A stretch of DNA of 64,000 nt from [Leptolyngbya] sp. PCC 7376. Lineage in GTDB: Bacteria; Cyanobacteriota; Cyanobacteriia; Cyanobacteriales; MRBY01. Position 1 is the stretch's first letter, and every line of letters begins with the position of its first letter. The stretch lies in NCBI RefSeq assembly GCF_000316605.1, contig NC_019683.1, forward strand, positions 478,036 to 542,035, read 5' to 3'. The notes under the pieces were generated by a model, which was given only the letters and a program-made list of their open reading frames with translations, was not told the DNA's origin and searched no databases. Positions 40,055-50,682 of the stretch are shown here, piece after piece. A program made the translations under genes and the position numbers.

Positions 40055-43000
40055 CTAGGAAATACTTGATATGGGTAATTGGATACAGAATGTCGTAGAT
40101 TGGCCTAACTCGGATTGAACGGTGAGGCTGCCGCCATGTTTTTTAACAATAATTTGATGGGCGATCGCCAGCCCTAGCCCAGTGCCTTGACCCGCTTTTT
40201 TAGTGGTAAACAAATGCTCGAAAATCTTATCTTGTACCGTCTCAGAAATGCCGCGACCATTATCTGAAATGGTGATTTTGACTTGATTATTGTCTACCTC
40301 TGTGCGAATCGTAATTTGAGGTGAACACTTCTCGATGTCTGCAAAATGAGAGTGAAGATTAGCTTCGTCTAAAGCATCAATGGCATTTGCCAAAATGTTC
40401 ATAAAGACTTGGTTTAATTGTCCAGGGAAACAATCAATAGGCGGAATGTCACCATAGTCGCTAATAACTTTAATTTCAGGACGTTCAGGATTTGCTTTGA
40501 GACGATGGCGCAGAATTAAAATGGTACTTTCCATGCCTTCGTGAATATCAAAACGTTGCTTTTGATCTGTGTCAGCACGAGAAAAGACACGCAAACTTTT
40601 ACTAATAGATGTGATGCGATCGCCACTATCTTCCATGGCTCGAATCAGTTTGGGTAAATCTTCGCGTACATACTCTAGATCGACAGCTTCCAATTCTTCT
40701 TTGAGCCCATCGCTGGGATGAGGAAGTTCTTCGGCATAGAGATCGAGCAACCCGAGTAAATCACTGATGTATTCCTGAGTGGCCCCGACATTGCCGAGAA
40801 TGCAACCAACAGGATTATTAATTTCATGGGCAACCCCCGCCACTAAGCCACCTAAGGCTGACATTTTTTCACTCTGTACCAGTTTTAATTGGGCTTGCTG
40901 TAAATCTGTTAATGTCTGCTGCACCTTTCCATATAGCCGCGCATTTTCTAAAGAAATAGCCGCCTGAGTGCAGAGGATGTTGATCGTCTGGATCCGTTCT
41001 TCTGTAAACACCCCTCTAGTCAAACGATTTTTGAGATATAAAATGCCAATGAGGCTACCTTGGTTGAGTAGCGGCATGCACAAAACACTTTTGGGTTGAC
41101 GCTGGATGAGGTAGTTATCAATGACAGGTAAGTCCGTTTCTAAATCATCGATGACAATAATCTCCTGCGTATTTTTAACGTATTGAATAAGTTTGACTGG
41201 AAGGTCGGGATTATTATCGAGGGGAGTTGTACAAAGCTGGAGTTCTTCTGGGGTGGCGATCGCTCTGACTTGCCACTCGTTAGCTTCACTCGGCAAAATT
41301 AAGGCGCAGCGATCGCCACCAGAATTTTGCAAAATAATCCGAGTGACCTCGGTAAGTAAGGCATTGAGGTCAATGTTACTGGCGATCGCTTGAGAGGCTT
41401 TAAAGATAGCCTGTTGGTCTAACGTTGCATTGATGGAGTAACTCGTATTCGATTGCGCTCTCGTCTGCACGCCAACATAGCGATTAATCATTGAAGTAGA
41501 AACTGAATCGCTCCCAGTGCTTTGTGCTGGTCTAGAAATCCGAGGGGATTGGGTTTCAATCTGAATCGTCTTGGCTCCAGCCCCCCAACGGGCATAGCCA
41601 TAAAAAGCCTCTTGGATATGGGGCATCGCAAAGCTATCCTTACCCTGTTGGTGGTAAAGCCGAGCCGCAAATTCATGGATGAGTGCTTCTTCTTGCATAA
41701 ATCCATTAGTGTGCGCTTCGTCGATTGCCCGATGATATAAGTCCATTGCACCGAGGCGATCGCCTTTTACTCGGCAGCATTCAGCTTTTACCAACAAATA
41801 TTTATGCAGGAAATTTTCTGGGCAACTATCAACCCAAATTTTGAGCTGTTTTTGATTTGCCTCAATCCATTCCCAACGCTTGTGTTCAAGATCTGATGCC
41901 TCGTCAAATTCCGTGTTTAGAAGAACGAGGGAGCCATAGTAAAAGTAGTAGCTATGGGTTGGAAAGCCCACTAGAGAAGACACTATCGGTTGAAGCTGCT
42001 GAAAAAATTGCCACCCTTTCTCAAAGTCTTCGATGATGCAGCAGCGATGCATTTCCAATGAGTAGTGAATGGCTAACCCCAACTGATTACGAGATATCTC
42101 CCCTGCTCGGATAACAGCTTGGGCTTCGGTAATAATTTCTGTTTGTTCCGGGCTAGTGGTATTGGCAGCGACTAACTGTTGCACAAAAATCTGGGCACCT
42201 GCCAGTGCAATTCGGAGCATCTCACTATCTACCTGTTTTTCAACAGCGTCATAGCTCGGCAGAATAGTATTCGCTAAACTCCCTAAGTCTTCTCCTTGGA
42301 AGAGGAGATTCAAGACACTGCCAAAGAGGTTATAGGCTGCATACTGGGTTTCTCCTGCTTCCATCCCGGCTAAAAAACTGTCGTTATTGACCTTCGAGGA
42401 ACCTGCAATTGGTCGAGCCCAAGGATGGGCAAATGAGCCAAGCATGAGTCCCGCTTGACATTGCATCGCCTTACTATTGAATCGATGGGCTAGCTCAACC
42501 CCCATTTCAGCAAAAGTATAGCCTCGTTGATAGTCACCCTGAATTGAGCCGAGCAGCATACCGTAGTTGGCATAGGATTTAGATGATTCTGCAATGTTGC
42601 CATATTCGATAGAGTAACGAGTTCCGAGGAGACCGACTAACGCATAGAGGCTATTTCTGCCCGTAATGTAGACTGGCGGATCAATCGCCACTAATAACTT
42701 AATTGCGGCTTGGATTTTGAGGGGTGGGACTTGATCATTGTGTTCTAATAAGTCATAGATGTGGCGATCGCCCATCATTTCAGCTAAGCGAATAAACTCT
42801 TGCTCAACTAGTGCTGGAATATTGTCCTCTTGGATGTCAATGTCCAAATCTCGCAGCCCTGTTAAACCCCAATCAATCGCCTCAGCATAGCGCCCTTGCA
42901 AACAACAGCCGACTAACTGTAAGACACAAATTTCGGCGCGATCGGTTGCTGATGTAATCTCTGCAAAGGCTTTGTCTGTAGTTTGTTCCAACTCCACATA

Positions 43001-45457
43001 GTTCGCACTACTCAGTTGAGCTGACCCCAATGCTTGATAGAGAGACAGTGTCAGATCATAGTGATGTTGCCATCCTTCATCCCCCAATAGCTCGATACCC
43101 GTTTTACAGTAATCAATAGTGGCATCGTAAGCCGTTGAATTAAGAGCCTTCTGGGCGGCGGCTAAGTTCAGCTGGATGAGTTGTCGCTGTTCATCGTCGT
43201 CCACTAAAAAATCGCGACCGAAATTAAGATAACCCACCACATTGAAGAGGAGGGCATCGTCGTTTGCTTCATTCATACAGGCCAGTAGCAACTGACCGAT
43301 GTGATACTGAGTTGCTACTTTTTCGGCCTCAGGGATTAAGGCGTAAGCCGCCTGTTGTACACGATCATGTAAAAATTGATAGCCCACTGCTAGCTTGTCT
43401 ACGGTGGGGATGCAATCATCATGGTTCTGAAAAAATTTGTAAGTTTCACTTTCTGGAATCACCAACCCTTCTTTTAGGGCGGCCCATAACGCAGTGGCGA
43501 CCTCCTCTTGACTTTGCTCACACACCACAGCCAGTGTTACCAAGTCAAAACGACTACCGATGCAAGCTGCAAGCTTTAACACTGTTTGAGTTGCACTGCT
43601 TAGTCTTTTCAGCCGACTCACCATAAAAGCCACCACATCATTAGTGAGTGCTAAGGCTCTGACCTGGGCGATATCGCATTGCCAACATCCCCCCTCTGCT
43701 GAATAGGCAATAAAACCATCTTCATGCAAGCCTTGCAAAAATTGCGTCGTAAAAAATGGATTACCTTGGGCTTTTTGGAATACTAATTTAGCTAATGCTA
43801 GTGCCGATTCTTGGGAGCATAGTAATGTATCCGCGATTAGGCTCGTAATATCGTCTAGATCTAGAGGGGCTAACGTAATGGTTCCAATATTTGCTCCCTT
43901 TTGAAGCATCTCTTCCAAAGTGAGCATCAACGGATGAGCTGGGGAAACCTCATTGTCCCGATAGGCTCCAAGCACCAATAGGTAGCCTGCATCTGAGTCT
44001 CCCATTAAGAGTTTGACCAACCCCAAAGAAGCCGAATCTGCCCATTGCAGATCATCTAGGAAAATGACTAGGGGATGTTCTTTCGTGGTGAAGACTCGCA
44101 CAAATTGACTAAAGAGGCGATTAAATCGATTTTGTGCGGCGATGCCGGATAGTTCGGGCAAGGGAGGCTGTTCACCAATGATTGTCGCTAGTTCTGGGAT
44201 GACATCAATGATGACTTGACCATTTTCGCCCACAGCTTCAAGGATTTTTGTCCGCCAGCGGGTGAGGTCAGTATCAGATTCTCCTAAAAGCTGTCCCATT
44301 AAGCTACGGAAGGCTTGGACAAAGGCTGAAAAGGGAGTGCTACGGTTAAATTGGTCAAATTTTCCTTTGATAAAGTAACCGTTCTGGCGGGTAATCGGCT
44401 TATGAACTTCATTGATGACTGCTGTTTTACCAATCCCTGAGAAGCCTGCTACCAGCATCATTTCGGTTTGACCCTGGGCAACGCGTTCAAAGGCATTGAG
44501 TAAGGTTTTTGTTTCGGCTTCGCGTCCGTAGAGCTTTTCGGGAATGAGGAAGCGATCGCTGACGTCCCTTAGTCCTAAGCAAAATTCAGCAATCTCTTCT
44601 TGTTTTTTCCATTGTGTGAGGCATTGTTCTAGATCGTATTTCAGACCCAGAGCACTCTGATAGCGGTCTTCCGCATTTTTTTGCATCAGTTTTGCCACGA
44701 GCGCTGCCACCATGGTTGGTATGTTTGGATTGGCCTCAGCGATGGGAGTGGGTTGCTGTGCCATATGGCAATGGATAAGTTCTAGCGGCTCGTCGCTATG
44801 GAAAGGTAATTGCCCAGTCAATAGCTGGTATAGCGTTACCCCGAGGGCATAGAAATCAGTACGATAATCAATTGCTCGGTTCATCCGGCCCGTTTGCTCT
44901 GGGGCAAGATAGGCGAGGGTGCCTTCTAGGCTTTTGGGACTTTGGAGTGCCTGGGTTTCTTTGGGCAGTAGAGAGGCGATGCTAAAGTCAATTAGCTTTA
45001 TTGTTTTTGACTCAGGATGAATCAGAATATTGGCAGGTTTGATGTCTTTATGAATAACTCGATGCTGATGAAGGTCGTGAAGAATATCGGCGAGTTGGCT
45101 GGCGATCGCCAGCACATCAGTTAGATCTAAGGTTTGCTCTTGAAGGAAAGTGTCTAGGGAAATACCACCCCAATCCTCCATCACCAGCACATAGCTATTA
45201 TCTATGGCCTCTAAACTAAGGGGCTTGATAATGCCTGAAATCGGCAGGTTGGCAGTGATCGTATATTGATTGCGAAACTGAACGAGTTCTTTAAAACTCG
45301 GGTAATCTCGCTGTAATACTTTGAGGATAACTGGATTGTTTGAGCCTGATTGTCTAGCGCGATAAACTGCTGTGCGAGACCCCAGATATAGTTGCTCGAC
45401 AATATTAAAACCCGCAATTTCGGGCTTTACGTTAGATCGATTGTCGATGGCGGTCAT
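40055..45457 (-). CDS. multi-sensor signal-transduction multi-kinase: Ser/Thr protein kinase + AAA/NTPase + TPR-like + GAF + HisKA + HATPase_c (1800 aa)
   Basis: HKDIKPANIL catalytic loop and DFS (DFG-like) motif; P-loop GFSGIGKT; GAF region; phospho-acceptor box AHEINNP (HisKA); G-boxes DNGRGI and GTGLGL. Confidence 0.9.
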   Translation of the reverse strand: MTAIDNRSNVKPEIAGFNIVEQLYLGSRTAVYRARQSGSNNPVILKVLQRDYPSFKELVQFRNQYTITANLPISGIIKPLSLEAIDNSYVLVMEDWGGISLDTFLQEQTLDLTDVLAIASQLADILHDLHQHRVIHKDIKPANILIHPESKTIKLIDFSIASLLPKETQALQSPKSLEGTLAYLAPEQTGRMNRAIDYRTDFYALGVTLYQLLTGQLPFHSDEPLELIHCHMAQQPTPIAEANPNIPTMVAALVAKLMQKNAEDRYQSALGLKYDLEQCLTQWKKQEEIAEFCLGLRDVSDRFLIPEKLYGREAETKTLLNAFERVAQGQTEMMLVAGFSGIGKTAVINEVHKPITRQNGYFIKGKFDQFNRSTPFSAFVQAFRSLMGQLLGESDTDLTRWRTKILEAVGENGQVIIDVIPELATIIGEQPPLPELSGIAAQNRFNRLFSQFVRVFTTKEHPLVIFLDDLQWADSASLGLVKLLMGDSDAGYLLVLGAYRDNEVSPAHPLMLTLEEMLQKGANIGTITLAPLDLDDITSLIADTLLCSQESALALAKLVFQKAQGNPFFTTQFLQGLHEDGFIAYSAEGGCWQCDIAQVRALALTNDVVAFMVSRLKRLSSATQTVLKLAACIGSRFDLVTLAVVCEQSQEEVATALWAALKEGLVIPESETYKFFQNHDDCIPTVDKLAVGYQFLHDRVQQAAYALIPEAEKVATQYHIGQLLLACMNEANDDALLFNVVGYLNFGRDFLVDDDEQRQLIQLNLAAAQKALNSTAYDATIDYCKTGIELLGDEGWQHHYDLTLSLYQALGSAQLSSANYVELEQTTDKAFAEITSATDRAEICVLQLVGCCLQGRYAEAIDWGLTGLRDLDIDIQEDNIPALVEQEFIRLAEMMGDRHIYDLLEHNDQVPPLKIQAAIKLLVAIDPPVYITGRNSLYALVGLLGTRYSIEYGNIAESSKSYANYGMLLGSIQGDYQRGYTFAEMGVELAHRFNSKAMQCQAGLMLGSFAHPWARPIAGSSKVNNDSFLAGMEAGETQYAAYNLFGSVLNLLFQGEDLGSLANTILPSYDAVEKQVDSEMLRIALAGAQIFVQQLVAANTTSPEQTEIITEAQAVIRAGEISRNQLGLAIHYSLEMHRCCIIEDFEKGWQFFQQLQPIVSSLVGFPTHSYYFYYGSLVLLNTEFDEASDLEHKRWEWIEANQKQLKIWVDSCPENFLHKYLLVKAECCRVKGDRLGAMDLYHRAIDEAHTNGFMQEEALIHEFAARLYHQQGKDSFAMPHIQEAFYGYARWGAGAKTIQIETQSPRISRPAQSTGSDSVSTSMINRYVGVQTRAQSNTSYSINATLDQQAIFKASQAIASNIDLNALLTEVTRIILQNSGGDRCALILPSEANEWQVRAIATPEELQLCTTPLDNNPDLPVKLIQYVKNTQEIIVIDDLETDLPVIDNYLIQRQPKSVLCMPLLNQGSLIGILYLKNRLTRGVFTEERIQTINILCTQAAISLENARLYGKVQQTLTDLQQAQLKLVQSEKMSALGGLVAGVAHEINNPVGCILGNVGATQEYISDLLGLLDLYAEELPHPSDGLKEELEAVDLEYVREDLPKLIRAMEDSGDRITSISKSLRVFSRADTDQKQRFDIHEGMESTILILRHRLKANPERPEIKVISDYGDIPPIDCFPGQLNQVFMNILANAIDALDEANLHSHFADIEKCSPQITIRTEVDNNQVKITISDNGRGISETVQDKIFEHLFTTKKAGQGTGLGLAIAHQIIVKKHGGSLTVQSELGQSTTFCIQLPISSIS

Positions 45458-45739
45458 GGGGAGTGTATGGAGGCTTTAACAAGATGGACAATTTGATTTG
45501 TTTTAAATATCAGCTAAGCATCGCTCTAGAATTTGCTGCGCTGCATATATTCGAGCCATATGATGAAGCTGACAATTACACCCAAAAGAACTTTTAGAAT
45601 CTTAGCTATAGGCTAGACAGTAGGCTGTGATCTCAAACAGCGATCACGTCATTATCCAGACTATAGGCAATGATCTGAGTTGGAGATTCTCGATACCGGA
45701 GAATTATTTTTTTCGGATATAGGTCTTTGAATGCAAAAT

Positions 45740-46040
45740 GCTGTGGCGTGATTAGGTGCAGATTGGACGGTGATGCTGCCACCAAGTTTTTTAGTGATAA
45801 TTTTGATGGGCGATCGCCATCCTTAGCTCAGTTCCGTTTTTCGTTTTTTGTGTAAACAAATGCTTAAAAATCTTTTCTTTTATAGTCTTAGAAATTTTGC
45901 GACTATTATCTGAAATTTTTATTTTGGCATGATGATTTTTTATCTCAGTGCAAATTATTGTCTGAAGAGAATGTTGCTCTGATTTTCTGAGATTAAAGTG
46001 AAGACTAGCGTCATTCAACGTATCAATGGCATTTACCAAG
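45740..46040 (-). pseudogene. decayed duplicate of the histidine-kinase 3' end (HATPase_c fragment)
   Basis: DNA and translated similarity to 40100..40400 (…KIKISDNSRKISKTIKEKIFKHLFTQK… vs …KITISDNGRGISETVQDKIFEHLFTTK…); AT-shifted, truncated. Confidence 0.6.
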
Positions 46041-46396
46041 ATCCCGCCCTTTATACAAATCTAGTTCAGAGAGAATATTCCTTACATTTCAATATTTCAG
46101 TACATCATGCGACTAAGGCATAAGTAAGAAGAGGCAATCGTCAAAAACATTTAAAAAAATGGTTTCTCAATTGATTTACGGAAGAATATCTTATTGAGGA
46201 ATGAAGAGTATTGTCTCACTAAGAATCTACATCAAGAAAATTCTGGTTCACCATAGAGCTTACAGGCCAATATATGTAATTGATTCGATGTATTTGATAT
46301 AGACGGTTAAACGTGGCTCTCTGTGTACAATAATGTCGATGAAATTCAACATTAATACCTCTTCTGCTAAGTCATAAAATGCAAATATTTTAGACT

Positions 46397-46440
46397 TAGC
46401 AAGTATCAATGGATACGTACGTATCCATTGATACTTGCTA
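46397..46440. repeat. 44-bp perfect palindrome
   Basis: tagcaagtatcaatggatacgt|acgtatccattgatacttgcta, exact reverse-complement symmetry. Confidence 0.9.
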
Positions 46441-46538
46441 TATTTCAAGCAGATTTTTAAGTTCCAAAACTTAATCTAAAGAGATAGTTGACACCGACCT
46501 GATTATCAGTTTTCTAAAAAATAATAATTAATAATTTG

Positions 46539-46650
46539 TATCTAGGGTTCCAGCTCTTTGACATGACTGGGTGTTTGGTCCGAGAGATACAGCCAGTCGA
46601 TTTCTCACATCCAGAAATACTGGTTCACGGAGGGATAAAAGCCCGGGAGG
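46539..46650 (+). ncRNA. guanidine-I (ykkC) riboswitch aptamer
   Basis: Conserved blocks CUAGGGUUCC (46542-46551), GGUCCGAGAG (46576-46585) and ACGGAGGGAUAAAAGCCCGGGAG (46627-46649) in canonical order and spacing; followed by U-rich expression platform and the SSF transporter ORF. Confidence 0.8.
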
Positions 46651-46744
46651 CGTTTGTTGATTTTTCAAGATCACACACTGTCTCTTGGGCTTTCGTTTTT
46701 GCAGAAACTTACAAATGTTCGATATCTAGTTTGGAGATAGATCA

Positions 46745-48250
46745 ATGGAACATACTTCTTTTTCCTATGGAATTATTATTTTTCTATTGGGAACATTGGG
46801 GATTGGAGCCTGGGCTTCCCAGCAAATTAAGGGTGATAGCGTTAACTTTTTGGTCGCTGGACGGGGATTAGCGTTGCCCTTGGCCGCCGCTACTTTGATG
46901 GCTCAGTCGGTGGATTCTAATGCAACGTTGGGTAATACAGATTTGTCGTCTGAGTTTGGCTTTTGGGCTGGTGCAGCTTTACCTATCGGCTTATCTTTAT
47001 GCTTATTTTTAACTGGGACATTTTTGGCAAAACCCATGAATCGCATGGGATTGATTACCATTCCTGACTTCTATCGAGTTAAGTATGGTCGCACTGTTGA
47101 GCTGATTGCAGCTTGCATTATGTGTGTGAGTTTTTCGTTTCTGCTGGCTGGTAACCTCGTTGCGGGTGGCTATATGTTCCAAACGTTCCTCGGAACTAGC
47201 TATGTCGGTGGCATTACTTTGCTCGCAGCTCTTGTCTTTGCCTATACGGTATCTGGAGGCTTATTTGCTGTGGCTTATACCGATGCCATGCAAGTCGTGA
47301 TTGCTTTGCTTGGTACATTAGGTTTGTTGTTTTATCTCGTGGCCAATTTCGGTATTGTGATCGAGCCTGGGATGGGTCCTCTGGCACTGGAACAGTTGAC
47401 GGCGGTAAGTTCTGGGGCTGCGATTAACTGGGCTAGTATTTTGGCTCTAGGACTAGGCAATATGGTAGCGATTGATTTTATGGCTCGAATTTTTGCGGCT
47501 GCAAGCCCCGAAACAGCTCAAAAATCTTGTTATGCAGCTTCTCTTGGCACATTAATCATTGGTATCCCATTTTCAGTCATTGCACTTTCAGCGAATAGAA
47601 TTCTCGACGAGGCTGGAGTTGTCGCTGATGGACCAGTACTGTTTGCTTTACTTCAAAATGCTGTGCCGCCTTTGTTAGGTCTGCTTGTATTAGCGGCAAT
47701 TTTGTCGGCTTCTCTCTCAACTGCTGATGGTGCAATTTTAGGAACATCGTCAGTCTTAGCCCACAATGTTTTTGGAATTCGCCATGAAATTGGTGATGGC
47801 CATAGTGGTGGCGGCGATCGCCTGTTATTCATTACCCGCTTAATGGCTATTTTTATTACGCTCTTAGGGGTCTTCTTGGGACTTAGGGTTCCCCAAACGG
47901 GAGTGCTATTGCTGCTGGGCTTTGACCTGGGTTTTGCTGGATTAGTTGTTCCTCTGTTGGGTGGTCTGTTTTGGAGAAAGGCAACGCCAGAAGGAGCTTT
48001 CGCTTGTATCATTGCAGGTTCTATCACCCGACTTGTGTTCTTTGCCTTTATGCCCACCATGTTTGGCATTGACAACACCCTTTTTTATATTCCCAACAGC
48101 ACATTCACCATTGATTTTGACGGTTTCCCAACGCTGATTAGTCCAATCGTGGGTTTGATTGCCTTCGTCCTCGTCTCTAATCTCACTTACCGTCGCCTTG
48201 ATGCTGGCAAGTTACGGGAAAGAACTTTAGAGGAAATCAAACATCTTTAA
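46745..48250 (+). CDS. sodium:solute symporter family (SSF, DUR3/PutP-like) transporter; candidate guanidine/urea-type importer
   Basis: 501 aa, about 13 TM helices, SSF-typical N-terminus; RBS ggaga; directly downstream of riboswitch. Confidence 0.85.
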   Translation: MEHTSFSYGIIIFLLGTLGIGAWASQQIKGDSVNFLVAGRGLALPLAAATLMAQSVDSNATLGNTDLSSEFGFWAGAALPIGLSLCLFLTGTFLAKPMNRMGLITIPDFYRVKYGRTVELIAACIMCVSFSFLLAGNLVAGGYMFQTFLGTSYVGGITLLAALVFAYTVSGGLFAVAYTDAMQVVIALLGTLGLLFYLVANFGIVIEPGMGPLALEQLTAVSSGAAINWASILALGLGNMVAIDFMARIFAAASPETAQKSCYAASLGTLIIGIPFSVIALSANRILDEAGVVADGPVLFALLQNAVPPLLGLLVLAAILSASLSTADGAILGTSSVLAHNVFGIRHEIGDGHSGGGDRLLFITRLMAIFITLLGVFLGLRVPQTGVLLLLGFDLGFAGLVVPLLGGLFWRKATPEGAFACIIAGSITRLVFFAFMPTMFGIDNTLFYIPNSTFTIDFDGFPTLISPIVGLIAFVLVSNLTYRRLDAGKLRERTLEEIKHL

Positions 48251-48436
48251 TGCTTCTGAAGTGGTTTTCGCTCAGCAAAGAAGAAAATCATTTCTTCTGT
48301 CTGTCTAAACCAAGGTGTATCCCTCGATAGGCAAACCTAATTGTCGAGGGAATATATCAGCCTAATCCCCTCAACATTGACCAAAAGAAATTGGTAAAAG
48401 TATCAACTCAGAATTTTGATTATGAACGTGTAAATC

Positions 48437-49630
48437 ATGACAGATAACCCAACTTTTCAGGAACCAGACTCCAATTCAGAGCCGATGTCAGAAGCTAAAC
48501 GGGCACTGGAACTCGAAACTCATCTTCCCTTAACGGGTTGGCAGCAGGAAGTTGACCAAGGTCTGGAATATGGTCTAGAGGCCGCAGACAGTATCGGTGA
48601 TCGCACGATTTCTACATTCTCTAGGGGTGAGCTGCCCCACTATGCGGGTATCAATACCTTCATGAAGGCGCCTTATGTCGAGGATGTTCGCCTAGTCGGT
48701 AATTATGATGTGGCGATCGTCGGTGTCCCCCACGATTCCGGAACCACTTATCGTCCGGGCACTCGCTTTGGTCCCCAAGGTATTCGCCGAATATCAGCTT
48801 TGTACACTCCCTATAATTTTGAATTAGGCGTTGATCTTCGCGAACAAATTAAGCTCTGCGATGTCGGTGATATCTTTACGATTCCTGGCAATAACGAAAA
48901 ATCATTTGATCAAATTTCTAAAGGAATCGCTCACATTTTTAGTTCGGGTGCTTTCCCAATTATCTTGGGCGGTGACCATTCCATTGGCTTTCCGACAGTG
49001 CGTGGAATTTGTCGTCATTTAGGCGATAAAAAAGTCGGCATTATTCACTTTGACCGCCATGTCGATACCCAAGAAACGGACTTAGACGAGCGGATGCACA
49101 CTTGTCCCTGGTTTCATGCGACCAATATGGCCAATGCCCCCGCGAAGAATCTGGTACAGCTAGGCATCGGTGGCTGGCAAGTGCCTCGCCAGGGCGTCAA
49201 AGTTTGCCGGGAACGTGCGACCAATATCCTAACTGTGACCGACATCATGGATATGGGCATGGATGCAGCGGTAGATTTCGCATTAGAGCGCGCGATGGAT
49301 GGCACGGACTGTGTCTGGATTAGCTTTGATATTGACTGTATCGATGCTGGATTCGTGCCGGGTACAGGTTGGCCTGAGCCAGGTGGATTACTCCCCCGTG
49401 AAGCGCTTTATTTGTTGGGTAAAATTGTCTCACGTGCGCCGGTTTGTGGCCTAGAGATAGTTGAAGTTTCTCCGCCCTATGACGTGAGCGATATGACTTC
49501 GCTGATGGCGACCCGTGTGATTTGCGATACGATGGCTCAGCTTGTGCTCTCTGGTCAATTGCCACGTACAGAAAAGCCTAGTTATATCCATGAAGAAGCC
49601 AATATGGATATAGATCAACCCTGGCGTTAA
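48437..49630 (+). CDS. arginase/agmatinase-family ureohydrolase with N-terminal extension; candidate guanidine hydrolase (GdmH-like) or agmatinase
   Basis: GGDHS, FDRHVDT, SFDIDCIDAGFVPGTG metal-binding motifs; 397 aa; same operon as riboswitch-controlled transporter. Confidence 0.85.
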   Translation: MTDNPTFQEPDSNSEPMSEAKRALELETHLPLTGWQQEVDQGLEYGLEAADSIGDRTISTFSRGELPHYAGINTFMKAPYVEDVRLVGNYDVAIVGVPHDSGTTYRPGTRFGPQGIRRISALYTPYNFELGVDLREQIKLCDVGDIFTIPGNNEKSFDQISKGIAHIFSSGAFPIILGGDHSIGFPTVRGICRHLGDKKVGIIHFDRHVDTQETDLDERMHTCPWFHATNMANAPAKNLVQLGIGGWQVPRQGVKVCRERATNILTVTDIMDMGMDAAVDFALERAMDGTDCVWISFDIDCIDAGFVPGTGWPEPGGLLPREALYLLGKIVSRAPVCGLEIVEVSPPYDVSDMTSLMATRVICDTMAQLVLSGQLPRTEKPSYIHEEANMDIDQPWR

Positions 49631-49695: not shown

Positions 49696-50682
49696 TTAGG
49701 CGATCGCCTGTAGATTTTCTTCGATGTGAGCGTTCGGGTCATGGGAGCGGATTTGCTCAATAAAAAAGTCTTCGAGGGTCGGTCGCGCCAATTTTAGATC
49801 CATGAGCTTTGCACCCATCAGATTGAGAGATGCTAAAAAGGCTTGTTGATCACCGACCAGATGCCCATGCCATTTCCCCTCGCGTAACTGTAGATCTGGG
49901 AGCCATTTTTTGAGCTGGGTTTGGTCTCCCCCGCGTACGATGGCTTGATAACGATCTTCTGTCCCCAATAATTCACTCAGAGTACCTGTGCAAATGATTT
50001 CGCCCTTCGACAAAATTGCGAGGCGATCGCAAATTTGTTCGACGTCAGCGAGAATGTGAGAATTAAAAAAGATGGTTTTGCCTTGCTCCTTTAGCGACAA
50101 AATAATTTCCCGCACCTGAAAGCGTCCCAGTGGATCAAGACCAGACATCGGCTCATCGAGGAACACCAAATCTGGGTCATTAATTAATGCCTGTGCCATC
50201 CCAACTCGTTGGAGCATCCCCTTGGAATACTTGCGCATTTGGCGTTTCTTGGCGATTTCTTTTGCCAAACCCACCGTATCCAACAGTGTGTTGATACGTT
50301 TGTGGCGACGCTTCTTGGGGATTTGAAAGAGTGACCCCGTAAAGTCCAAAAATTCCCAAGCCGTTAGATAGTCATAGAAATAGGCATTTTCCGGTAGATA
50401 ACCAATTTTTTCTCTCGTTTGGCGATCGCCGATCGGCTTACCTAGGAGCGTTGCCTGCCCTGCACTTTTCCGAATAATCCCCAACAAAATCTTGAGCATG
50501 GTTGTTTTACCAGCACCGTTAGGCCCCAATAGCCCAAACGTTTCCCCCGGCATCACCTCAAGAGAACAGTTCTTTAGAGATTGACTTGTTTTATTGAGCC
50601 AGAACCCTGTGCGATAAATTTTACTGATACGGTTTGTTGTCAGGATCGCCGCGTTATCTAGGATTCTGGGGTCAGTCTGCAT
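49696..50682 (-). CDS. ABC transporter ATP-binding protein
   Basis: Walker A GPNGAGKTT, signature YSKGMLQR, Walker B LVFLDEP. Confidence 0.85.
   Translation of the reverse strand: MQTDPRILDNAAILTTNRISKIYRTGFWLNKTSQSLKNCSLEVMPGETFGLLGPNGAGKTTMLKILLGIIRKSAGQATLLGKPIGDRQTREKIGYLPENAYFYDYLTAWEFLDFTGSLFQIPKKRRHKRINTLLDTVGLAKEIAKKRQMRKYSKGMLQRVGMAQALINDPDLVFLDEPMSGLDPLGRFQVREIILSLKEQGKTIFFNSHILADVEQICDRLAILSKGEIICTGTLSELLGTEDRYQAIVRGGDQTQLKKWLPDLQLREGKWHGHLVGDQQAFLASLNLMGAKLMDLKLARPTLEDFFIEQIRSHDPNAHIEENLQAIA

What the first reader, a model, noticed from the sequence alone, without database searches (positions are those of the whole stretch)
46539..46650. Guanidine-I (ykkC) riboswitch upstream of a transporter/hydrolase operon
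Three conserved sequence blocks of the ykkC / guanidine-I aptamer occur in the canonical order in the leader of the SSF transporter gene. They are CUAGGGUUCC, GGUCCGAGAG and ACGGAGGGAUAAAAGCCCGGGAG. The P2 segment AAAGCCC (46638-46644) has a downstream complement GGGCUUU (46687-46693) followed by CGUUUUUGC. Together they could form a terminator. This fits the known ON-switch logic, in which ligand binding sequesters the 3' aptamer strand. The six-frame ORF 46536..46871 that covers this stretch is therefore spurious.
Basis: partly seen in the sequence, partly recalled or inferred. Interest (0 to 1): 0.8.

Follow-up and report, generated by a model that had tools for sequence, protein, structure and literature searches.

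The report
Guanidine-I riboswitch controlling transporter-guanidinase operon
This is a genuine but ordinary guanidine-sensing riboswitch in a cyanobacterium; it turns on a two-gene operon for a membrane transporter and a guanidine-degrading enzyme, and only the transporter family looks possibly unreported.

Summary
The observation and the interpretation both hold. Rfam RF00442 (Guanidine-I) matches window 46531-46651 (+) over its full length, at 76.4 bits against a gathering score of 63 (E 7.8e-12). It is the only Rfam hit in the 64 kb. All ligand-pocket nucleotides are subtype 1 (guanidine), not subtype 2.

A strong hairpin (46638-46693, -28.1 kcal/mol, z -6) followed by UUUCGUUUUU overlaps the 3' half of P3. 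This gives the classic ON-switch terminator. The same platform follows 62 of 67 related cyanobacterial aptamers, and the aptamer helices covary strongly.

Downstream lie an SSS-family symporter (46745-48250) and a GdmH guanidine hydrolase (48437-49630) with near-90% identity to Synechocystis Sll1077. An NtcA-type promoter sits upstream. The source is Leptolyngbya sp. PCC 7376.

The riboswitch class, its link to gdmH and its NtcA co-regulation are published. The one possibly new point concerns the transporter. This SSS family lies behind a guanidine-I riboswitch in 61 of 80 cyanobacterial loci, and I found no paper describing it. It is a candidate secondary guanidinium importer.

The parts
46403..46416 (+). 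NtcA-type box GTATCAATGGATAC (GTA-N8-TAC), the predicted activator site of the operon promoter
   Evidence: Read directly from the sequence. A GTAN8TAC box lies within 260 nt upstream of 44 of 67 related aptamers, against 0.048 expected per region. Synechocystis gdmH is NtcA-regulated (PMC12704784). Function here is inferred.
46397..46440 (.). Perfect palindrome (20-bp arms, 4-nt loop) holding the NtcA box and its mirror copy GTATCCATTGATAC (46421-46434)
   Evidence: Folds at -31.8 kcal/mol with z -10.5. It is unique in the window. The reason for the mirrored duplication is unexplained.
46439..46444 (+). Candidate -10 hexamer TATATT (TA-N3-T), 22 nt after the NtcA box; predicted transcription start near 46451
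   Evidence: The sequence and spacing match the canonical NtcA class-II promoter layout (regex match). Inferred; there are no transcription-start data.
46531..46651 (+). Guanidine-I (ykkC subtype 1) aptamer. P1 is 46538-42 with 46586-90. The P1a/P1b region includes CUAGGGUUCC (46542-51) and GGUCCGAGAG (46577-86). P2 is a hairpin at about 46591-46625. P3 with its S-turn is 46626-46649.
   Evidence: RF00442 at 76.4 bits against a gathering score of 63, E 7.8e-12, full length. In 45 related aptamers 93.1% of cells are paired, with 195 compensatory cells against 59.6 in shuffles and 29-49% paired in slid controls.
46584..46585 (+). The G-A dinucleotide bulge (Dda_ykkC G37/A38) that lines the guanidinium pocket; the A is the subtype-1 marker
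   Evidence: Mapped from the numbering in PMC5340920 onto. PMC6031431 states this position is A in guanidine-I and a pyrimidine in subtypes 2a/2b.
46626..46649 (+). P3 with pocket residues: C64=46626, C66=46628, G67=46629 (cation-pi floor), G68=46630, the AAAA loop at 46637-40, G84=46646, G85=46647 (bidentate contact to the ligand), A86=46648 and G87=46649
   Evidence: sequence set against the structure description. All positions carry the subtype-1 nucleotide.
46638..46700 (+). Intrinsic terminator (expression platform). The 5' arm 46638-46649 is the 3' half of P3 and includes the ligand-contacting G46647. The 3' arm is 46682-46693, followed by the U-rich tract UUUCGUUUUU (46691-46700).
   Evidence: Folds at -28.1 kcal/mol with z -6.0, and 0 of 200 shuffles fold as well. 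It is also present in the minimum-energy fold of the whole leader. An equivalent hairpin with a U-rich tail follows 62 of 67 related aptamers.
46733..46737 (+). Shine-Dalgarno-like GGAGA, 7 nt before the ATG of the transporter gene
   Evidence: Read directly from the sequence.
46745..48250 (+). SSS/SSF-family symporter, 501 aa; a candidate guanidinium importer
   Evidence: PF00474 at 104.6 bits. It is 100% identical to 'Na+/solute symporter [Leptolyngbya] sp. PCC 7376'. In 61 of 80 homologous loci the gene lies behind a guanidine-I aptamer. The substrate is inferred.
48251..48436 (+). Structured 186-nt spacer between the two genes, with no canonical terminator
   Evidence: No terminator-like site is reported here. 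The fold has z -3.5 with two hairpins, neither followed by a U-run.
48437..49630 (+). GdmH, a Ni-dependent guanidine hydrolase of the arginase family, 397 aa
   Evidence: PF00491 at 257.9 bits. E 2.5e-241 and near-90% identity (read from the alignment) to Synechocystis Sll1077, PDB 7ESR/7OI1. E 8e-176 to 9FEK.
46536..46871 (+). Spurious six-frame ORF (TTG start, 111 aa) lying over the riboswitch and the start of the transporter gene
   Evidence: Listed and has no Pfam family at E<=1. Its sequence is accounted for by the RNA element and by the out-of-frame SSF coding region.

Best explanation
A guanidine-I (ykkC subtype 1) riboswitch in the 5' leader of a two-gene operon (SSS-family symporter, then guanidine hydrolase GdmH) of the cyanobacterium Leptolyngbya sp. 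PCC 7376. Transcription probably starts near 46451 from an NtcA-activated (nitrogen-limitation) promoter; this step is inferred. Without guanidinium, nucleotides 46638-46649 pair with 46682-46693 to form an intrinsic terminator, and RNA polymerase stops at the U-tract near 46700, before the genes. When guanidinium binds the pocket, P3 and its docking onto P1a are stabilised. The pocket is formed by G46584/A46585, G46629, G46630 and G46647. The 5' arm of the terminator is then sequestered, so transcription reads through into the transporter and gdmH: an ON switch. The transporter is inferred to import guanidinium. GdmH hydrolyses it to urea and ammonium, by orthology to Sll1077. Expression would therefore need both nitrogen limitation and the presence of guanidine. 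What is shown here: family membership, the pocket signature, structural covariation, the terminator and its conservation, and the gene identities. What is inferred: ligand binding by this particular RNA, the transcription start and NtcA dependence, co-transcription of gdmH, and the transporter's substrate.
For: RF00442 matches at full length, 76.4 bits against a gathering score of 63, E 7.8e-12, and is the only gathering-level Rfam hit in 64 kb. The pocket nucleotides are all subtype 1 (mapped). In 45 related cyanobacterial aptamers, 17 of 27 pairs show compensatory changes, 93.1% of cells are paired against 79.6% in shuffles and 29-49% when slid, and the covariation score is 0.461 against 0.199. 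The terminator folds at -28.1 kcal/mol with z -6, and an equivalent terminator follows 62 of 67 related aptamers. GdmH matches Sll1077 at E 2.5e-241. The Synechocystis RF00442 element upstream of gdmH binds guanidine (Kd about 58 uM) and gives guanidine-dependent reporter expression, and that operon is NtcA-regulated (PMC12704784). NtcA boxes lie upstream of 44 of 67 aptamers against 0.048 expected. No terminator-like site lies between the two genes.
Against: There are no experimental data for this instance. The score is only 13 bits above the gathering score, and cmscan flags non-canonical pairs at the top of P1b and one in P2. The U-tract is interrupted (UUUCGUUUUU), and the simple terminator scan missed the hairpin because its loop exceeds the scan's 8-nt limit. 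gdmH lies 186 nt beyond the transporter across a structured spacer. A promoter-like site at 48063-48091 could give gdmH some independent expression. The Ni-insertion chaperones (HypA/HypB-like GhaA/GhaB) that accompany gdmH in Synechocystis and in the Xenococcus locus examined (L062) are absent from the whole 64 kb.
Confidence: 0.93

Rival explanations
1. It is a ykkC subtype 2 variant (a ppGpp, PRPP, nucleoside-diphosphate or 2d riboswitch) that merely scores on the RF00442 model.
For: Subtype 2 RNAs share the fold and most conserved nucleotides with guanidine-I, so they can resemble it (PMC6031431, PMC5912903).
Against: The discriminating positions are A (46585) and G (46629), where subtype 2 has pyrimidines. 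G84 and G85 are both G. The downstream genes are a guanidine hydrolase and a transporter, not the ilv, pur, NUDIX or phn_DUF6 genes linked to subtype 2. A permissive Rfam scan of the region gave no competing riboswitch family.
Confidence: 0.02
2. The riboswitch acts mainly on translation (ribosome-binding-site access) or on RNA stability, rather than on transcription termination.
For: The minimum-energy fold of the whole leader places the SD/AUG region (about 46715-46755) in a local hairpin. The U-tract is imperfect.
Against: The stable hairpin that competes with P3 lies 40 nt upstream of the SD and does not include it. The P3-overlapping hairpin with a U-rich tail is conserved in 62 of 67 relatives. 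Guanidine-I elements are described as transcriptional ON switches, including in the Synechocystis gdmH study, which reports transcriptional control.
Confidence: 0.05
3. The riboswitch controls only the transporter, and gdmH is expressed independently from its own promoter.
For: The 186-nt spacer is structured (z -3.5). A 10-of-12 sigma-70-like site sits at 48063-48091. In most related genomes the riboswitch-controlled transporter is monocistronic and gdmH is elsewhere or has its own aptamer.
Against: No terminator-like site lies in the spacer. Promoter-like sites are fewer than in shuffles (4 against 7.2), so that site is not evidence of a promoter. No second aptamer or GTAN8TAC box precedes gdmH. 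In other genomes gdmH is normally riboswitch-controlled.
Confidence: 0.15
4. The stretch is the protein-coding ORF 46536-46871, or a chance match.
For: An uninterrupted 111-codon frame with a TTG start exists.
Against: E 7.8e-12 for the RNA model. There is no Pfam family at E<=1. Homologous elements differ by indels confined to helix tips and carry compensatory base-pair changes, which is the signature of RNA rather than coding constraint. The frame runs out of phase into the well-supported transporter gene.
Confidence: 0.01

Closest known systems
Guanidine-I riboswitch upstream of gdmH (sll1077) in Synechocystis sp. PCC 6803 (Itzenhauser et al. 2025, PMC12704784)
   Same: Same Rfam family (RF00442) and same phylum. 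The regulated enzyme is the same (GdmH, near-90% identity). A predicted NtcA box lies upstream, matching the NtcA control shown there. Both are ON switches induced by guanidine.
   Different: In Synechocystis the aptamer directly precedes gdmH-ghaA-ghaB, and an ABC importer (gimABC) follows under its own promoter. In this window an SSS-family symporter lies between the aptamer and gdmH. No HypA/HypB-type chaperone gene was found in the 64 kb. The neighbouring ABC ATPase gene (49696-50682) is on the opposite strand, so it is not in the operon.
[quoted passage not shown] 2024, PMC11410670)
   Same: The operon logic and gene order are identical: riboswitch, secondary permease, then a GdmH-type guanidinase. 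Ni chaperones and an ABC importer are absent from the locus in both.
   Different: The comammox permease was collected with PTHR45649/TIGR03428/PTHR42770 models, which describe amino-acid/polyamine/organocation permeases. The transporter here is PF00474/TIGR00813 (solute:sodium symporter) and gave no TIGR03428 match. The phylum also differs.
Structurally characterised guanidine-I aptamers (Dickeya dadantii, PMC5340920; Sulfobacillus acidophilus, cited therein)
   Same: All nucleotides described as forming the pocket and the tertiary contacts are identical: the G37/A38 bulge, G67, G68, G84, G85, A86, G87, C64, C66 and the AAAA loop.
   Different: The variable P1b and P2 helices differ in length and sequence. 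P1b here is weak, with mismatches near its tip.
High-affinity choline transporters CHT1/SLC5A7 and a bacterial CHT (PDB 8J74, 9RWS), the closest solved relatives of the transporter
   Same: Same SSS family (E about 1e-18). They carry a small organic cation coupled to Na+.
   Different: Similarity is only distant (E about 1e-18; alignment). The aromatic choline cage (W62, Y67, Y91, W141, W254, W406; PMC11589582) is replaced here by S55, A60, L83, L133, A242 and L389. Two invariant aspartates, D57 and D244, sit in the TM1 and TM6 motifs.

Membership tests
Guanidine-I riboswitch (ykkC subtype 1, Rfam RF00442) | Scores at or above the curated gathering threshold of the covariance model over the full model | tested here: met
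   76.4 bits against 63, model positions 1-107/107, E 7.8e-12.
Guanidine-I riboswitch (ykkC subtype 1, Rfam RF00442) | Three-hairpin architecture (P1/P1a/P1b, P2, P3) supported by covariation | tested here: met
   In 45 related aptamers, P1, P1b and P2 have compensatory changes in 17 of 27 pairs, and P3 is invariant. 93.1% of cells are paired, and no shuffle in 500 reaches the observed covariation score.
Guanidine-I riboswitch (ykkC subtype 1, Rfam RF00442) | Subtype-1 pocket nucleotides: A at the A38(Dda)/A46(Sac) position, G at G67, and G at G84/G85 | tested here: met
   46585=A, 46629=G, 46646=G and 46647=G (mapped).
Guanidine-I riboswitch (ykkC subtype 1, Rfam RF00442) | Downstream genes for guanidine removal or assimilation | tested here: met
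   A GdmH ortholog, E 2.5e-241 to Sll1077, lies in the same transcription direction, 186 nt after the first gene.
Guanidine-I riboswitch (ykkC subtype 1, Rfam RF00442) | Expression platform: an intrinsic terminator whose 5' arm overlaps the 3' side of the aptamer (ON switch) | tested here: met
   Hairpin 46638-46693 at -28.1 kcal/mol with z -6, followed by a U-rich tract. Conserved in 62 of 67 relatives. In silico only.
Guanidine-I riboswitch (ykkC subtype 1, Rfam RF00442) | Selective binding of guanidinium, and guanidine-dependent read-through | not testable with these tools
   Needs in-line probing or ITC and transcription assays. It has been shown for the Synechocystis homolog.
ykkC subtype 2 (ppGpp / PRPP / 2c / 2d variants) | Pyrimidine at the A38/A46-equivalent and G67-equivalent positions | tested here: not met
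   These positions are A and G (criteria).
ykkC subtype 2 (ppGpp / PRPP / 2c / 2d variants) | Association with branched-chain amino acid, purine, NUDIX or phn_DUF6 genes | tested here: not met
   The downstream genes are an SSS symporter and GdmH.
GdmH guanidine hydrolase (arginase family) | Close sequence relationship to the characterised enzyme Sll1077, including its active-site segments | tested here: met
   E 2.5e-241. In the alignment, the segments VPHDSGTTYRPG, ERMHTCPWFHATN and FVPGTGWPEPGG are identical. The exact positions of the Thr/His/Trp signature were not numbered here.
GdmH guanidine hydrolase (arginase family) | Adjacent Ni-insertion chaperones GhaA/GhaB (HypA/HypB-like), as in Synechocystis | tested here: not met
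   tblastn with HypA/HypB from the Xenococcus locus L062 finds nothing in the 64 kb. They are also absent in comammox loci, so this feature is not strictly defining.
Solute:sodium symporter family (PF00474 / TC 2.A.21) | Match to the family profile above its threshold across the whole domain | tested here: met
   PF00474 at 104.6 bits against 22.8, profile positions 1-406/406. No NCBIfam equivalog threshold is reached, so the substrate is not assigned by homology.
Comammox-type guanidine permease (APC family, TIGR03428/PTHR45649) | Match to the models used to define it | tested here: not met
   TIGR03428 is not among the NCBIfam matches at E<=0.001. The PANTHER models could not be run.

The most novel reading that the evidence does not exclude
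The SSS-family protein encoded at 46745-48250 may belong to a cyanobacterial family of dedicated, ion-coupled guanidinium importers. The family has invariant TM1 AQSVDSNA and TM6 AIDFM motifs. It is distinct from both the GimABC ABC importer and the comammox APC permease. It might be the kind of second, low-affinity uptake route that Itzenhauser et al. (2025) inferred but did not identify. I did not check whether Synechocystis has an ortholog. In 61 of 80 loci the family is wired to a guanidine-I riboswitch, which would make uptake self-inducing.
Probability: 0.5. Interest if true: 0.5.

Novelty: new member of a known kind. Interest (0 to 1): 0.3.

Why it matters
The riboswitch itself adds nothing new. 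It is a standard RF00442 member in a phylum and gene context where the class has been validated experimentally. A routine Rfam-based genome annotation would be expected to flag it.

Its value is as a pointer. Across 80 cyanobacterial loci the same SSS-family transporter is the gene most often placed directly behind a guanidine-I aptamer, or at the end of a riboswitch-gdmH-hypA-hypB operon. That is strong guilt-by-association evidence for a guanidinium transporter of a family not yet linked to guanidine in the literature I could search.

If confirmed, it would name a secondary guanidine uptake system in cyanobacteria and add a third importer type to guanidine nitrogen assimilation. The compact riboswitch-importer-hydrolase cassette could also be useful as a guanidine-inducible module in cyanobacterial engineering.

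Tried and rejected
1. Subtype 2 identity was rejected from the pocket nucleotides and the gene context.
2. A permissive Rfam scan of 46300-46900 gave only sub-threshold miRNA-like hits on the upstream palindrome and nothing that competes with RF00442.
3. The sigma-70 scan found no canonical promoter for the operon. The TTGACA at 46489 has no acceptable -10 hexamer at 16-18 nt (and inspection). The NtcA-type promoter is preferred.
4. The simple terminator scan did not report the riboswitch terminator, because its loop exceeds the scan's 3-8 nt limit. Folding was used instead.
5. I tried to read Nelson et al. 2017 (PMC5360189) for the original gene-association list, but it is not held. An earlier mention of SSS transporters there cannot be excluded.
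6. I searched GdmH homologs hoping to reach the Synechocystis locus and test for an SSS ortholog. Sll1077 was not among the 120 proteins listed, so this was left untested.
7. I looked for another genome with the window's gene order (riboswitch, SSF, gdmH). None of the 80 loci has it, nor does the context of P0006. Only contigs that encode the identical transporter sequence share it.
8. Three literature searches for guanidine or gdmH together with an SSS/solute symporter returned nothing relevant.
9. The palindrome was tested as a repeat family and is unique in the window.

Full report
**Observation.**
- CUAGGGUUCC at 46542-46551
- GGUCCGAGAG at 46577-46586
- ACGGAGGGAUAAAAGCCCGGGAG at 46627-46649

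A gathering-threshold scan of the whole 64 kb against Rfam 15 returned a single hit. RF00442 (Guanidine-I) matches 46531-46651 (+) over model positions 1-107 of 107, at 76.4 bits against a gathering score of 63, with E 7.8e-12. A permissive scan of 46300-46900 gave no competing riboswitch family. This is far beyond chance.

**Subtype.** I mapped the window onto the Dickeya dadantii crystal-structure numbering, using the pairs described in PMC5340920. That paper gives C6-G39, U7-A36, A8-G35, G9-C34 and G10-C33 for the CUAGGG/CCGAGAG blocks, and C64...G87 for P3.
- The G37/A38 bulge is G46584/A46585.
- G67 (the cation-pi floor) is G46629, and G68 is G46630.
- The AAAA loop is 46637-46640.
- G84 is G46646, and G85 (the bidentate contact to guanidinium) is G46647.
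- A86 and G87 are 46648 and 46649. C64 and C66 are 46626 and 46628.

PMC5340920 and PMC6031431 state that subtype 2 RNAs carry pyrimidines at the A38 (A46 in the S. acidophilus numbering) and G67 positions. They also state that sorting on the A38/A46 position alone separates guanidine gene contexts from the rest.

**Comparative support.** The transporter encoded downstream has 292 relatives in the genome collection, and the best 80, all cyanobacterial, were fetched. A pattern search plus Rfam scans gave the following:
- In 49 of 80 loci a guanidine-I aptamer lies directly upstream of the transporter gene on the same strand.
- In 12 more, the aptamer heads an operon beginning with gdmH that ends in the transporter.
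- All 11 such aptamers (direct or operon-heading) that were re-scanned with Rfam passed the gathering score, at 74-89 bits.

An alignment of 45 of these aptamers with the window's shows invariant pocket and tertiary-contact blocks alongside covarying helices. Of 27 predicted pairs, 17 have compensatory double changes. With the structure imposed, 93.1% of cells are paired, against 79.6% in shuffles and 29-49% when partners are slid. There are 195 compensatory cells against 59.6 in shuffles, and the covariation score is 0.461 against 0.199, reached by none of 500 shuffles. P1, P1b and P2 carry the covariation. P3 never varies, as expected for the ligand-binding helix.

**Expression platform.** Folding 46636-46702 gives one dominant hairpin at -28.1 kcal/mol, with z -6.0 and no shuffle in 200 folding as well. 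The same hairpin appears in the minimum-energy fold of the whole leader. Its 5' arm, 46638-46649 (AAAGCCCGGGAG), pairs with 46682-46693 (CUCUUGGGCUUU) and is followed by CGUUUUUG.

It includes C46642-44 (paired to G46632-34 in the aptamer), G46646 (the long-range pair to C46626) and the ligand-contacting G46647. Ligand binding and terminator formation are therefore mutually exclusive at the level of individual nucleotides, which is the ON-switch logic described for this class.

An equivalent arrangement follows 62 of 67 related aptamers. It consists of AAAAGCCCGGGAG, a variable inner hairpin, then CUCYYGGGCUUU and a U-rich tail. The platform is therefore conserved, not incidental. The simple terminator scan missed it only because the loop exceeds that scan's 8-nt limit.

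**Genes.**
- ORF 46745-48250 is a 501-aa solute:sodium symporter family protein (PF00474 at 104.6 bits, full-length; no NCBIfam equivalog threshold reached). It is 100% identical to a protein of [Leptolyngbya] sp. PCC 7376, which identifies the source organism.
- ORF 48437-49630 is an arginase-family protein. It matches Synechocystis Sll1077, the characterised Ni-dependent guanidine hydrolase GdmH (PDB 7ESR/7OI1), at E 2.5e-241 with near-90% identity (read from the alignment) and identical active-site segments. It matches 9FEK at E 8e-176.
- The next gene (49696-50682) is an ABC ATPase on the opposite strand, so the operon has two genes.
- No terminator-like site lies in the 186-nt spacer between them, although the spacer is structured (z -3.5).
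- No HypA/HypB-type Ni chaperone was found anywhere in the window. They do accompany gdmH in Synechocystis and in the Xenococcus PCC 7305 locus L062.

**Promoter.** A perfect palindrome at 46397-46440 (-31.8 kcal/mol, z -10.5, unique in the window) consists of two mirrored GTA-N8-TAC boxes. The first, GTATCAATGGATAC (46403-16), is followed after 22 nt by TATATT (46439-44). This is the canonical layout of an NtcA-activated promoter and predicts a start near 46451.

On its own this would be weak evidence. However, a GTAN8TAC box lies within 260 nt upstream of 44 of 67 related aptamers, against 0.048 expected per region. The boxes cluster in two tight distance classes: about -62 to -74 for operons that begin with gdmH, and about -121 to -198 for operons that begin with the transporter. 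Itzenhauser et al. 2025 showed NtcA control of gdmH in Synechocystis. The operon therefore probably needs both nitrogen limitation (for initiation) and guanidine (for anti-termination). This step is inferred.

**The overlapping ORF.** ORF 46536-46871 (111 aa, TTG start) has no Pfam family even at E<=1. It is fully explained by the RNA element. Homologous elements vary by indels at helix tips whose lengths are not multiples of three. The ORF also runs out of frame into the well-supported transporter gene.

**Comparison with what is known.** The class, its structure and its subtypes are well described. The element upstream of gdmH has been validated in Synechocystis, with a Kd of about 58 uM, guanidine-induced reporter expression and NtcA co-regulation.

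The closest match in operon logic is comammox Nitrospira. There a guanidine-I riboswitch precedes an APC-superfamily permease and then a guanidinase, and Ni chaperones and ABC transporters are absent. That permease was defined with the PTHR45649, TIGR03428 and PTHR42770 models. The transporter here is PF00474/TIGR00813 and does not match TIGR03428. The architecture is therefore shared, but the transporter family is not. The window's exact gene order (aptamer, SSS transporter, gdmH) was not seen in any of the 80 related loci. Three other layouts occur:
- aptamer followed by the transporter alone;
- divergent gdmH and transporter genes, each with its own aptamer;
- aptamer, gdmH, (GST), hypA, hypB, then the transporter.

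**The transporter as the only possibly new element.** Three full-text searches found no paper that links a guanidine riboswitch, gdmH or guanidinase to an SSS/solute symporter. The 2025 review lists only ABC and APC importers. Itzenhauser et al. infer an unidentified additional uptake route in Synechocystis.

The closest solved relatives of the transporter are the Na+-coupled choline (organic cation) transporters CHT1 and a bacterial CHT, at E about 1e-18. In the alignment, the CHT1 aromatic cage residues (W62, Y67, Y91, W141, W254, W406; PMC11589582) are replaced by S55, A60, L83, L133, A242 and L389. Two aspartates, D57 and D244, sit in the TM1 motif AQSVDSNA and the TM6 motif AIDFM. These two motifs are invariant in all 80 homologs, despite overall identity of 67-89%.

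This fits a small-cation site different from the choline site, but it is inference from a distant alignment (E about 1e-18). I could not read Nelson et al. 2017, so an earlier listing of this gene association cannot be excluded.

**Verdict.** The finding is correct and well observed. The object is an ordinary member of a thoroughly characterised riboswitch class, in a context (cyanobacterial gdmH) where the class has already been validated. Interest is low to moderate and rests on the transporter association rather than on the RNA.

Noticed in passing
window 46397-46440: A perfect 20-bp-arm palindrome made of two mirrored NtcA-type boxes (GTATCAATGGATAC and GTATCCATTGATAC). It is unique in the window. 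Why the box is duplicated as an inverted repeat is unexplained. Related loci appear to have a single box, shared by divergent promoters in L035.
   Followed up: partly
window 45791-46039 (-): An 82-aa ORF with a weak HATPase_c match (E 2.8e-4). Its sequence resembles the C-terminal catalytic segment of the neighbouring 1800-aa kinase (40055-45457). It is probably a decayed partial duplicate, sitting in a 1.3-kb stretch that otherwise appears non-coding.
   Followed up: no
window 46745-48250 (protein residues 53-60 and 242-246): The TM1 motif AQSVDSNA and the TM6 motif AIDFM are invariant in all 80 homologs. They occupy the positions of the choline-cage residues of CHT1, which places two aspartates (D57, D244) at the predicted substrate site.
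   Followed up: partly
window 48251-48436: The spacer between the transporter gene and gdmH folds more stably than shuffles (z -3.5) into two hairpins, neither followed by a U-run. It might be a processing or stability element.
   Followed up: no
L057 2349-2454, L067 5924-5999, L070 2271-2347, L074 5963-6038 (all - strand): Four transporter homologs that have no guanidine aptamer in the fetched DNA carry a glutamine riboswitch (RF01739) on the opposite strand just downstream. This is another nitrogen-metabolism context for the family.
   Followed up: no
L027 3725-3842: The aptamer of this Acaryochloris MAG reads CACAGAGGG...CCCAGGAG. It has A at the G67 (pocket floor) and G83 positions, and a C-to-U change in GGGUUCC. 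G67A lowered guanidine affinity about 200-fold in D. dadantii, so this copy may be impaired, altered in specificity, or an assembly error.
   Followed up: no
alignment A1 (for example L004, L006, L014, L021-L023, L027, L028, L031-L033, L035, L041, L042, L044, L054, L055): Many transporter-linked aptamers have GGUCCAAGAG rather than GGUCCGAGAG, that is, A at the Dda G35 position (the A8-G35 sheared pair). The window has the canonical G.
   Followed up: no
L006, L035, L044, L049, L051, L054, L055, L072: These loci have two guanidine-I aptamers back to back on opposite strands. In the six loci where a gdmH match was found (L006, L044, L049, L051, L054, L055) they drive divergent gdmH and transporter genes. 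In at least L035 the two share one NtcA-type box between them.
   Followed up: partly
L081 (Acaryochloris marina MBIC11017 plasmid pREB7, record 44110-45612): A riboswitch-controlled copy of the transporter sits on a conjugative plasmid, directly downstream of an ammonium transporter gene. A second copy on the chromosome (L075) has no riboswitch.
   Followed up: no
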